Below are positions 50,001 through 53,000 of a DNA stretch of 64,000 nucleotides, one piece after another (within the stretch, counting starts at the first letter, position 1; every line of letters starts with the position of its first letter). The position numbers were made by a program. The DNA comes from Escherichia coli (GTDB taxonomy: Bacteria; Pseudomonadota; Gammaproteobacteria; Enterobacterales; Enterobacteriaceae), in the NCBI RefSeq assembly GCF_041886205.1, contig NZ_CP169029.1. One strand, 5' to 3'.

Positions 50001-53000
50001 CACGATCACATAAAACAAGAATCATAAATTAATAACCAGATATCGGAATATTCGCTCTCACAGGGATGGTTTACAAAATGCGTTATCGGTCTCAGCACCC
50101 CTATAGCATCAAGGAAAAGTAGATGAAGAGTGAAGTGTTGTCCGTTAAAGAGAAAATTGGTTATGGCATGGGAGACGCCGCCAGCCACATTATTTTCGAT
50201 AACGTAATGTTATATATGATGTTCTTTTATACCGATATTTTTGGCATTCCTGCCGGATTTGTCGGAACCATGTTTTTGGTCGCTCGTGCACTGGATGCGA
50301 TTTCCGATCCTTGCATGGGGTTGTTGGCCGATCGAACGCGCTCTCGCTGGGGTAAATTTCGTCCGTGGGTACTGTTTGGCGCACTGCCATTTGGGATCGT
50401 CTGTGTACTGGCCTATAGCACGCCAGATCTCAGTATGAACGGAAAAATGATTTATGCAGCAATTACTTACACCCTACTTACCTTACTTTATACCGTCGTC
50501 AATATCCCTTACTGCGCATTGGGTGGTGTAATCACCAATGACCCGACTCAGCGTATCTCGCTGCAATCCTGGCGTTTTGTGCTGGCGACCGCGGGAGGCA
50601 TGCTTTCTACGGTTCTGATGATGCCACTGGTTAATTTAATTGGTGGTGATAATAAACCACTCGGTTTCCAGGGTGGTATCGCGGTCCTTTCCGTGGTGGC
50701 ATTCATGATGCTGGCATTCTGTTTCTTCACCACTAAAGAACGCGTTGAAGCACCACCTACAACGACGTCTATGCGGGAAGATTTACGTGATATCTGGCAA
50801 AACGACCAGTGGCGGATTGTCGGTTTACTAACCATTTTCAATATCCTGGCGGTGTGCGTACGCGGTGGAGCGATGATGTATTACGTCACATGGATTTTGG
50901 GTACGCCGGAAGTGTTTGTCGCTTTTCTCACCACTTATTGCGTGGGTAACCTGATTGGTTCCGCTCTGGCAAAACCGCTGACCGACTGGAAATGTAAAGT
51001 CACTATTTTCTGGTGGACGAACGCCCTGCTGGCAGTGATTAGCCTCGCGATGTTCTTTGTTCCCATGCAGGCCAGCATCACTATGTTTGTCTTCATCTTC
51101 GTGATTGGTGTGTTGCATCAACTGGTGACACCTATCCAGTGGGTAATGATGTCCGATACCGTCGACTACGGCGAGTGGTGCAATGGTAAACGCCTGACCG
51201 GGATCAGTTTTGCTGGCACGCTGTTTGTGCTCAAACTGGGGTTGGCCTTCGGCGGCGCTCTTATCGGCTGGATGCTGGCTTATGGCGGATATGATGCGGC
51301 AGAAAAAGCGCAGAACAGCGCCACGATTAGCATCATTATTGCGCTATTCACGATTGTTCCGGCGATCTGTTATTTGCTGAGCGCGATTATCGCTAAACGC
51401 TACTACTCACTCACGACGCACAATCTGAAAACCGTTATGGAACAGCTGGCCCAGGGCAAACGCCGTTGCCAGCAACAATTCACCTCTCAAGAAGTGCAGA
51501 ACTAAGGAACGGCAATGAAAATTAGCGATGGAAACTGGTTGATTCAACCTGGCCTCAATTTGATTCACCCGCTTCAGGTGTTCGAGGTTGAACAGCAGGG
51601 TAATGAAATGGTGGTCTATGCTGCCCCCCGTGATGTGCGTGAACGTACCTGGCAGCTTGATACGCCTTTATTTACGCTGCGCTTTTTCTCCCCACAGGAA
51701 GGTATTGTCGGTGTACGGATTGAGCATTTTCAGGGGGCGCTGAATAACGGTCCTCATTACCCACTCAATATTTTGCAGGACGTGAAGGTCACAATCGAAA
51801 ACACAGAGCGTTATGCTGAGTTTAAAAGTGGCAACTTAAGTGCGCGTGTCAGCAAAGGTGAGTTCTGGTCACTGGATTTTCTGCGCAACGGCGAACGTAT
51901 TACCGGTAGTCAGGTGAAAAATAATGGCTACGTGCAGGACACGAATAATCAACGAAATTATATGTTTGAGCGGCTGGATCTTGGCGTTGGCGAAACAGTT
52001 TATGGTCTGGGAGAGCGCTTCACTGCCCTGGTGCGCAATGGTCAAACGGTAGAGACCTAGAACCGGGACGGCGGCACAAGTACTGAACAGGCGTATAAAA
52101 ATATCCCGTTCTACATGACTAACCGTGGTTATGGGGTACTGGTCAATCATCCCCAATGCGTCTCTTTTGAAGTGGGATCGGAGAAAGTCTCCAAAGTGCA
52201 GTTCAGCGTTGAGAGTGAATATCTCGAATACTTTGTTATCGACGGTCCGACGCAGAAAGCGGTACTTGATCGTTATACCCGCTTTACTGGTCGTCCGGCG
52301 CTGCCGCCCGCGTGGTCCTTCGGTCTGTGGCTAACCACTTCATTTACCACCAACTACGACGAGGCGACAGTAAACAGCTTTATCGATGGTATGGCGGAAC
52401 GCAATCTGCCACTGCATGTTTTCCACTTTGACTGTTTCTGGATGAAAGCCTTCCAGTGGTGCGATTTTGAGTGGGACCCGCTGACTTTCCCGGACCCGGA
52501 AGGGATGATCCGCCGCCTGAAAGCGAAAGGGCTGAAAATCTGCGTCTGGATTAACCCCTATATCGGGCAAAAATCCCCCGTCTTTAAAGAGTTACAAGAG
52601 AAAGGCTATTTACTCAAACGCCCGGACGGTTCGCTGTGGCAGTGGGATAAATGGCAGCCAGGTCTGGCGATTTATGACTTTACCAATCCGGATGCCTGCA
52701 CATGGTACGCCGACAAACTGAAAGGTCTGGTCGCGATGGGCGTTGATTGCTTTAAGACCGACTTTGGCGAACGTATCCCAACCGATGTTCAGTGGTTTGA
52801 CGGTTCCGATCCGCAGAAAATGCATAACCATTATGCGTACATCTACAACGAACTGGTGTGGAACGTGCTCAAGGACACCGTTGGTGAGGAAGAAGCCGTC
52901 TTGTTTGCCCGCTCGGCCTCCGTTGGTGCGCAGAAATTCCCGGTACACTGGGGTGGTGACTGTTACGCTAACTACGAATCAATGGCGGAAAGCCTGCGCG

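What the first reader, a model, noticed from the sequence alone, without database searches (positions are those of the whole stretch)
52058..52060. In-frame amber codon interrupts the GH31 alpha-xylosidase gene yicI
The yicI frame is continuous from 51515 to 53833 except for a single TAG at 52058-52060 (...[25 protein letters not shown]...). TAG is one substitution from TGG, and I believe the intact protein has Trp here. This is either a genuine nonsense pseudogene, which would probably also affect expression of the upstream transporter partner, or a hint that the strain carries an amber suppressor.
Basis: seen in the sequence. Interest (0 to 1): 0.45.

Follow-up and report, generated by a model that had tools for sequence, protein, structure and literature searches.

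The report
Amber stop kills yicI at methylation hotspot
The E. coli alpha-xylosidase gene yicI is knocked out here by a single G-to-A change that turns Trp182 into a stop codon; this is an ordinary pseudogene, and the only notable point is that the change sits at a methylated-cytosine (Dcm) mutation hotspot and has arisen independently in many E. coli lineages.

Summary
TAG at 52058-52060 is codon 182 of an otherwise intact 772-codon yicI (51515-53833). The closest complete genome, strain 6EVA, differs from the window's yicI at one base only, 52059 (A versus G). That gives TGG, Trp182, as in the solved YicI structures.

This is a genuine nonsense pseudogene. The truncated product has 181 aa and lacks the whole TIM barrel, including Asp416 and Asp482. 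An independent public read-set assembly is identical to the window over 6.5 kb, TAG included. The claimed effect on the "upstream" transporter is not supported, because yicJ is promoter-proximal and intact. Nothing points to an amber suppressor.

The mutated G pairs with the methylated inner cytosine of a Dcm site (CCTGG to CCTAG), which is the classical signature of 5-methylcytosine deamination. The same W182 amber occurs on at least 7 yicI alleles that differ by 26-73 nt, and each allele tested is one base from a wild-type allele of its own clade. In 5,426 complete genomes, the two Dcm-type nonsense sites (W46, W182) take 5 of about 26 nonsense events across 86 candidate sites. That is about 10-fold enrichment (P about 3e-4).

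Interest is low: this is a known kind of event in a dispensable gene.

The parts
52058..52060 (+). In-frame amber codon TAG at yicI codon 182 (ancestral TGG, Trp182)
52056..52060 (.). Mutated Dcm site: CCTAG here, CCTGG in wild-type alleles. Base 52059 pairs with the inner (methylated) cytosine of CCAGG on the minus strand
   Evidence: read directly from the sequence
51515..52057 (+). yicI codons 1-181, the only part that is translated. It holds part of the GH31 N-terminal galactose-mutarotase-like domain
   Evidence: PF13802 matches residues 55-180, a truncated match; this exact 181-aa product is on record on 121 contigs
52061..53833 (+). Untranslated remainder of yicI: codons 183-772 plus the stop. 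It encodes the TIM-barrel catalytic domain (Asp416 at 52760-52762, Asp482 at 52958-52960) and the C-terminal domain
   Evidence: The catalytic roles of Asp416 and Asp482 are from my own knowledge of Lovering et al. 2005 and were not checked here
52115..53833 (+). ORF from Met201 (572 aa), which gene finders call as a separate gene in assemblies that carry the stop. I saw no Shine-Dalgarno-like sequence just upstream
   Evidence: P0017 on 21 Logan contigs; the upstream sequence was read
50123..51505 (+). yicJ, GPH-family transporter. It lies upstream in the presumed yicJI operon, is intact, and is identical to 6EVA
53886..55619 (-). yicH (AsmA family), convergent with yicI. No downstream gene is exposed to polarity
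49736..49830 (-). selC (tRNA-Sec, anticodon UCA), the only tRNA gene in the window. It is not an amber suppressor

Best explanation
yicI in this strain is a genuine loss-of-function allele, W182amber. A single G:C-to-A:T transition at 52059 created it. That base pair is the 5-methylcytosine:guanine pair of a Dcm site (CCTGG on the coding strand, CCAGG on the other strand). The most likely path is as follows (inferred). Dcm methylates the inner cytosine. The 5-methylcytosine deaminates spontaneously to thymine. The resulting T:G mismatch escapes very-short-patch (Vsr) repair. Replication then fixes CCTAG. Translation stops after residue 181, leaving part of the N-terminal beta-sandwich domain and none of the catalytic barrel, so alpha-xylosidase activity is lost. 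yicJ upstream is untouched. Because the site is a mutational hotspot and the gene is dispensable, the same allele keeps arising in unrelated E. coli lineages. Shown here: the substitution, its Dcm context, its independent recurrence, the excess over non-Dcm sites, and its presence in independent assemblies. Inferred: methylation of this site in this strain, deamination as the chemical event, and loss of enzyme activity.
For: (1) There is one difference from the 6EVA yicI, at 52059. PDB YicI has Trp182. (2) The context ACC TGG AAC contains CCTGG, and the G-to-A change is at position 4, the partner of the inner C. (3) The exact 181-aa product is indexed in 168 blocks and seen on 121 contigs, from Logan assemblies of public sequencing runs, NCBI drafts and ENA metagenomes. 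Locus L011 (Logan, SRR10958940) is identical to the window over 6,546 nt, TAG included. (4) The TAG sits on at least 7 yicI alleles that differ by 26-73 nt. The alleles of F690, SW070912 and 600055 are each one mismatch from wild-type alleles of their own clade, as the window is from 6EVA. (5) I surveyed all 86 G:C-to-A:T nonsense sites of yicI in 5,426 genomes. 44 genomes carry one, in about 26 events. The two Dcm sites (W46, W182) take 5 events, against 21 at the other 84 sites. That is 10-fold, binomial P = 3e-4. The W46 amber (also CCTGG to CCTAG) is on two alleles 73 nt apart. (6) Control: the non-Dcm Q229 amber is about as abundant (155 blocks), but all 10 sampled places share one allele, 0-2 nt apart. 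(7) Three of the 21 SNPs between the window and 6EVA are at methylated Dcm positions, where 0.10 is expected (P = 1.5e-4). (8) The literature names CCWGG as a hotspot for G:C-to-A:T at the methylated base (PMC13250602, PMC3527292).
Against: No reads are available, so position 52059 in this particular assembly cannot be verified directly. dcm and vsr lie outside the window, so methylation in this strain is assumed from species-level knowledge. Event counts treat each site-plus-allele group as one event, and a few groups were decoded ambiguously between neighbouring sites. The enrichment test includes the site that prompted the question. Taking W46 alone as an independent test gives only P = 0.03. 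Loss of enzyme activity is inferred from domain content and was not measured.
Confidence: 0.82

Rival explanations
1. Assembly or basecalling artefact. Nanopore basecallers make systematic consensus errors inside Dcm motifs, so the A at 52059 could be false and the gene intact.
For: About 70% of ONT consensus errors fell in CCAGG/CCTGG motifs with older default models (PMC6591954). 93-98% of ONT-versus-Illumina discrepancies in E. coli O157 were at Dcm sites (PMC6703438). The window starts at dnaA, as is common for complete assemblies. Three of the 21 differences from 6EVA lie at Dcm positions.
Against: The ONT errors described are A called as G and T called as C at the central base between the C and G runs (PMC6703438). 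They are not G-to-A at position 4. All three Dcm-site differences have the deamination signature instead. A Logan contig of 80 kb from another run (SRR10958940) is identical over 6.5 kb, TAG included. The split-gene C-terminal ORF of exactly this allele is on 21 Logan contigs. I did not check the sequencing platform of those runs.
Confidence: 0.05
2. The strain carries an amber suppressor tRNA, so UAG182 is read through and yicI stays functional.
For: Nothing positive. TAG is the stop type that supE/supF-type suppressors read, and the rest of the ORF is still undegraded (one change from the wild type).
Against: The only tRNA in the window is selC. No other SNP relative to 6EVA creates a stop in the window. 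The intact downstream ORF is explained equally well by a recent mutation. The same allele arises in many wild lineages and is annotated as a pseudogene. yicI also collects TGA and TAA stops, at about 0.23 and 0.25 events per site against 0.26 for non-Dcm TAG, and IS insertions. So the gene is simply dispensable. The window is not K-12-like, since most genomes are only 95-99% identical. That K-12 laboratory strains are where supE44 is common is from my own knowledge.
Confidence: 0.03
3. A single ancient TAG allele was spread onto many backgrounds by homologous recombination, rather than arising by recurrent mutation.
For: E. coli recombines, and the region next to selC is a known integration site, with integrases beside selC in L008, L010 and L016.
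Against: Clade-specific SNPs 17 and 14 nt upstream and 55 nt downstream of the TAG are retained in the mutant alleles, so any transferred tract would have to be shorter than about 70 nt. Each mutant allele is exactly one base from a wild-type allele of its own clade. The non-Dcm Q229 amber, equally abundant, shows no such spread. A second Dcm site, W46, shows the same multi-background pattern.
Confidence: 0.03
4. Loss of yicI is positively selected in some niches. This does not exclude the hotspot. The hotspot merely supplies the commonest route to a favoured knock-out.
For: yicI is inactivated often and in many ways. 44 of 5,426 genomes carry G:C-to-A:T nonsense mutations. An IS4 insertion is present in at least 24 genomes. 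There are IS3-family insertions. Some mutant clones are widespread, with W267opal in 11 genomes and the Q229 and W182 ambers in more than 100 contigs each.
Against: There was no test of selection. About 1-3% disruption is unremarkable for an accessory sugar-utilisation gene. The per-site excess at Dcm sites is of the size expected from mutation bias alone. Most non-Dcm sites were hit once.
Confidence: 0.12

Closest known systems
lacI amber hotspots at Dcm sites (Coulondre, Miller, Farabaugh and Gilbert 1978); 5-methylcytosine deamination countered by Vsr very-short-patch repair
   Same: A G:C-to-A:T transition at the methylated cytosine of CCWGG creates an amber codon. The event recurs far more often than at other sites. 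The motif and mechanism are restated in PMC13250602 and PMC3527292.
   Different: The classical lacI hotspots are CAG-to-TAG in CCAGG on the coding strand, selected in the laboratory. Here the methylated C is on the non-coding strand (TGG-to-TAG in CCTGG), and the events are natural and seen across wild lineages. The 1978 paper itself is cited from my own knowledge and was not read here.
E. coli YicI, GH31 alpha-xylosidase (PDB 1WE5, 1XSI/1XSJ/1XSK, 2F2H)
   Same: With codon 182 restored, the protein matches these chains end to end (E = 0, 1,842 bits). It has the same three Pfam domains.
   Different: The window's gene cannot make this protein. Translation ends at residue 181, upstream of the barrel and of Asp416 and Asp482.
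yicI pseudogenes annotated by PGAP in E. coli F690, SW070912 and 600055 (W182amber) and in LR-45 and fS10a (W46amber)
   Same: F690, SW070912 and 600055 carry the identical codon change at the identical position. LR-45 and fS10a carry the same CCTGG-to-CCTAG change at the gene's other Dcm-type site.
   Different: The allele backgrounds differ, 46-64 nt from the window. The window's own lineage is not among the 5,426 RefSeq complete genomes, but it is present in Logan assemblies.

Membership tests
yicI / GH31 alpha-xylosidase gene | Near-identity to experimentally characterised E. coli YicI over the full length | tested here: met
   the 6EVA allele, one nucleotide from the window, matches 1WE5, 2F2H and 1XSI over residues 1-772, E = 0.
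yicI / GH31 alpha-xylosidase gene | N-terminal mutarotase-like domain, GH31 TIM barrel and C-terminal domain in one polypeptide | tested here: not met
   the domains are all encoded but split by the stop. The 181-aa product carries only a truncated PF13802 match. PF01055 and PF21365 lie downstream of the TAG.
Nonsense pseudogene | In-frame stop at a position where intact orthologues have a sense codon, in an otherwise conserved frame | tested here: met
   All but 3 of the 5,426 complete genomes lack the window's 28-mers spanning the A at 52059; the wild-type alleles I read directly carry TGG at codon 182.
Nonsense pseudogene | Loss of the encoded activity | not testable with these tools
   Inferred from the absence of the catalytic domain in the 181-aa product. 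No assay was possible.
Dcm (5-methylcytosine) deamination hotspot mutation | The ancestral sequence is CCWGG, and the change is C-to-T at the inner C (G-to-A on the other strand) | tested here: met
   CCTGG to CCTAG, position 4.
Dcm (5-methylcytosine) deamination hotspot mutation | Independent recurrence in excess of comparable non-Dcm sites | tested here: met
   at least 7 backgrounds; 5 of about 26 events at 2 of 86 sites (P = 3e-4); the non-Dcm Q229amber control has a single origin.
Dcm (5-methylcytosine) deamination hotspot mutation | The strain has active Dcm and the site is methylated | not testable with these tools
   dcm and vsr are outside the 64-kb window, and no methylation data are available.
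Amber-suppressor strain (supE/supF type) | A tRNA gene with a CUA anticodon | tested here: inconclusive
   none in the window, where the only tRNA is selC. The rest of the genome is not available.
Nanopore Dcm-motif consensus error | Error of the described type (central A called G, or T called C) that is absent from independent data | tested here: not met
   One search gives the error type. One search shows an identical sequence in an independent Logan assembly.

The most novel reading that the evidence does not exclude
The two Dcm-type Trp codons of yicI (W46, W182) act as natural, recurrently firing knock-out points. yicI loss would then be partly driven by methylation-dependent mutation bias and perhaps favoured in some hosts. 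If so, the frequency of W46 and W182 ambers across public E. coli genomes would give a ready-made population-scale read-out of the balance between 5-methylcytosine deamination and Vsr repair in the wild.
Probability: 0.12. Interest if true: 0.4.

Novelty: new member of a known kind. Interest (0 to 1): 0.2.

Why it matters
For this genome, the practical point is annotation. yicI should be marked as a pseudogene (W182amber), and yicJ as intact. The strain is predicted to be unable to hydrolyse alpha-xylosides such as isoprimeverose or xyloglucan oligosaccharides through YicI. That substrate range is from my own knowledge of the YicI literature and was not checked here.

More generally, this is a clean natural example of the textbook Dcm hotspot. 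It shows that an identical "pseudogene allele" in unrelated strains can be homoplasy rather than shared ancestry. That matters for anyone who uses pseudogene alleles or SNPs at CCWGG sites as phylogenetic markers, and for separating real Dcm-site variants from nanopore artefacts. It does not open a new biological question.

Tried and rejected
(1) The first multi-site survey failed. Concatenated 53-mers formed chance 28-mers across their junctions, so every genome matched.

(2) The second design, with 2-nt spacers, was mostly sound. It produced a large false 'Q376 amber' group. Inspection of strain 118UI showed wild-type CAG376 and an IS4 insertion whose end (TA...) completed a 28-mer with my spacer. 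The design with NNN spacers removed this problem.

(3) The promoter and terminator scan of 49700-54000 gave nothing above the shuffle expectation. It was not used.

(4) A literature search for 'yicI' plus 'pseudogene' found no paper.

(5) Programmed recoding of TAG (pyrrolysine-like), or a link to the neighbouring selC, was considered and dropped. selC reads UGA, and E. coli has no Pyl machinery (own knowledge).

(6) Reinitiation at Met201 (52115) as a way to rescue function was rejected. No Shine-Dalgarno-like sequence precedes it, and the product would lack 200 N-terminal residues.

(7) The strain could not be identified. No complete RefSeq genome carries the window's 53-mer exactly.

Full report
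**Observation**

The window carries TAG at 52058-52060. It is in frame with the ATG at 51515. Translating 51515-53833 gives a 772-codon frame with one internal stop, at codon 182 (...[22 protein letters not shown]...). The mechanical ORF list splits the frame into 51515-52060 (181 aa) and 52115-53833 (572 aa, from Met201).

**Identity of the gene and of the ancestral codon**

The 2,319-nt frame matches annotated yicI (alpha-xylosidase) in 5,421 of 5,426 complete E. coli genomes, at full length in 5,415. The best match is strain 6EVA. It differs at a single base, 52059 (A in the window, G in 6EVA), and yicI there is annotated as intact (WP_044697711.1). The 6EVA protein aligns end to end with the solved E. 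coli YicI structures 1WE5, 2F2H and 1XSI, which read TVETWNRDGG.

Pfam finds the three GH31 domains in the restored protein. The 181-aa product retains only a truncated N-terminal mutarotase-like domain. The TIM barrel and the C-terminal domain lie downstream of the stop. Asp416 and Asp482 are encoded at 52760-52762 and 52958-52960, also beyond the stop. I recall these two as the nucleophile and the acid/base from Lovering et al. 2005. That assignment was not verified here.

**Is the base real?**

Reads are not available, but three lines of evidence argue against an artefact.

- The exact 181-aa product is on record in 168 blocks of the public gene index and on 121 contigs. These come from Logan assemblies of public sequencing runs, NCBI draft genomes and ENA metagenome assemblies.
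- Locus L011 (Logan, SRR10958940, an 80-kb contig) is identical to the window over all 6,546 nt compared, TAG included. The 572-aa downstream ORF of exactly this allele is on 21 Logan contigs. The window's clone has therefore been sequenced independently with the same result.
- Nanopore consensus errors do cluster in CCAGG/CCTGG (PMC6591954). In E. coli, however, they were described as A called G and T called C at the central base (PMC6703438). The change here is G to A at position 4.

**Surroundings**

The window is the first 64 kb of a genome that starts at dnaA. It is collinear with 6EVA, with 21 substitutions and one homopolymer indel. yicJ (50123-51505) lies 9 nt upstream of yicI on the same strand and has no difference from 6EVA. 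yicH (53886-55619) is convergent. A nonsense codon in the last gene of the presumed yicJI unit therefore has no downstream gene to polarise. The only tRNA gene in the window is selC.

**Mechanism**

The ancestral context is ACC TGG AAC, which contains CCTGG, a Dcm site. Dcm methylates the inner cytosine on both strands. The G at 52059 pairs with the inner cytosine of CCAGG on the minus strand. Deamination of that 5-methylcytosine to thymine, if not corrected by Vsr, gives CCTAG. That turns TGG into TAG, which is exactly what is seen. CCWGG is a recognised hotspot for G:C-to-A:T at the methylated base (PMC13250602; PMC3527292). The classical case is the set of lacI amber hotspots (Coulondre et al. 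1978, own knowledge).

**Tests of the hotspot reading**

(a) A 53-mer centred on the A, with flanks too short to seed megablast on wild-type DNA, found three other complete genomes: F690, SW070912 and 600055. All three carry TAG182 and are annotated 'pseudo, internal stop'.

(b) Their alleles differ from the window's by 46-64 nt. They keep their own clade's SNPs 17 and 14 nt upstream and 55 nt downstream of the TAG. Each is one mismatch from wild-type alleles of its own clade. F690 is one base from O157:H7 alleles. 600055 is one base from a common allele. SW070912 is one base from a group of alleles that carry an IS4 insertion. These are independent origins, not a shared tract.

(c) In the wider collection, ten sampled places with the 181-aa product fall on at least seven alleles that are 26-73 nt apart. 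One further locus, L009, has TGA at the same codon.

(d) I surveyed all 86 positions of yicI where a G:C-to-A:T transition creates a stop, using N-separated 53-mers from four alleles. The design was validated locally: wild-type alleles gave no hits and known mutants were detected. It found 44 of 5,426 genomes. They decode to about 26 events at about 23 sites. Only two of the 86 positions are methylated Dcm positions, W46 and W182. They account for 5 events, against 21 at the other 84 positions. That is a 10-fold per-site excess (binomial P = 3e-4). For W46 alone, which is free of ascertainment by the finding, P = 0.03.

(e) W46amber is again CCTGG to CCTAG. It sits on two alleles 73 nt apart. 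One of them is 2 nt from a W182amber allele, so the same background was hit separately at both sites.

(f) As a control I took the non-Dcm Q229amber, which is about as abundant (155 blocks). It is on a single allele in all ten sampled places, 0-2 nt apart, so it has one origin with clonal spread.

(g) Three of the 21 substitutions between the window and 6EVA are at methylated Dcm positions, where 0.10 is expected (P = 1.5e-4).

- yicI W182amber, in the window.
- nepI Q48amber, in 6EVA, which PGAP marks 'internal stop'.
- A synonymous change in rpoZ codon 70.

**Amber suppression**

Nothing supports it. Across E. coli, after setting the Dcm sites aside, TAG, TGA and TAA stops hit yicI at similar per-site rates, about 0.26, 0.23 and 0.25 (my count). 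The gene is also disrupted by IS4 and by IS3-family elements. The gene is simply dispensable. The ORF is intact downstream of the stop because the mutation is recent, one base from the wild type. A whole-genome tRNA scan is still needed for formal exclusion.

**Comparison with what is known, and verdict**

This is a further natural example of a well-understood event: a nonsense pseudogene created at a Dcm 5-methylcytosine hotspot. The same allele is already deposited and flagged as a pseudogene in other genomes. I found no paper that discusses yicI pseudogenes. The recurrence pattern is a tidy illustration of homoplasy at CCWGG sites, but it is neither surprising to a specialist nor a route to an open question. 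Interest is 0.2. Confidence is about 0.8 that this is a genuine nonsense allele arising by the hotspot mechanism.

**Caveats**

- Events are counted as site-plus-allele groups.
- A few hits could not be assigned unambiguously between adjacent sites, because gapped alignments bridged neighbouring segments.
- Two earlier survey designs were flawed and were replaced.
- dcm and vsr status, methylation at this site and enzyme activity could not be tested.

Noticed in passing
window 44454 (nepI, 44313-45503, + strand): The mirror image of the finding. Here the window is intact (CAG, Gln48, inside CCAGG), while the nearest relative 6EVA has TAG (CTAGG), and PGAP marks its nepI 'internal stop'. This is another Dcm-site amber mutation separating two near-identical genomes.
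   Followed up: partly
window 63734 (rpoZ codon 70, - strand; rpoZ at 63668-63943): The third Dcm-position difference from 6EVA (window CCTGG, 6EVA CTTGG on the + strand). It is synonymous, CAG versus CAA. Which state is derived was not determined.
   Followed up: partly
L018 (E. coli 118UI, NZ_CP032515.1) 1440-2880; same lesion in at least 24 complete genomes: yicI is split by an IS4 insertion after about codon 384 in a large group of genomes. These include 118UI, CFSAN061770, EC1, APEC E18055 and several FDAARGOS strains. It is a different and much commoner way of losing yicI. IS3-family insertions occur in wlxctx60 and CUPF12.
   Followed up: partly
yicI in 5,426 complete genomes: 44 genomes carry G:C-to-A:T nonsense mutations in yicI at about 23 different codons. 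Examples are W267opal in 11 genomes, W427opal in 4 and Q352ochre in 3. The gene is recurrently pseudogenised across the species.
   Followed up: partly
window 49736-50120 and loci L008, L010, L016, L019: In the window, as in 6EVA, the selC site is unoccupied apart from a short rhuM remnant. Several related loci instead have a tyrosine-recombinase (integrase) gene next to selC, which means an island is integrated there. The W182 and W46 ambers occur in both configurations.
   Followed up: no
window 19905: The only indel relative to 6EVA is a T8 versus T7 homopolymer. It lies in the intergenic region between the PTS IIB gene and yidP, and could be a homopolymer sequencing difference.
   Followed up: no
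window about 6267-6664 (yidB): PGAP marks yidB 'frameshifted' in 6EVA. The window has no difference from 6EVA in this stretch, so it presumably carries the same frameshifted yidB.
   Followed up: no
window 31537: An A/C transversion relative to 6EVA at the outer cytosine of a CCTGG site (window ACTGG). It is not the methylated position. It lies in a hypothetical-protein gene of 6EVA.
   Followed up: no
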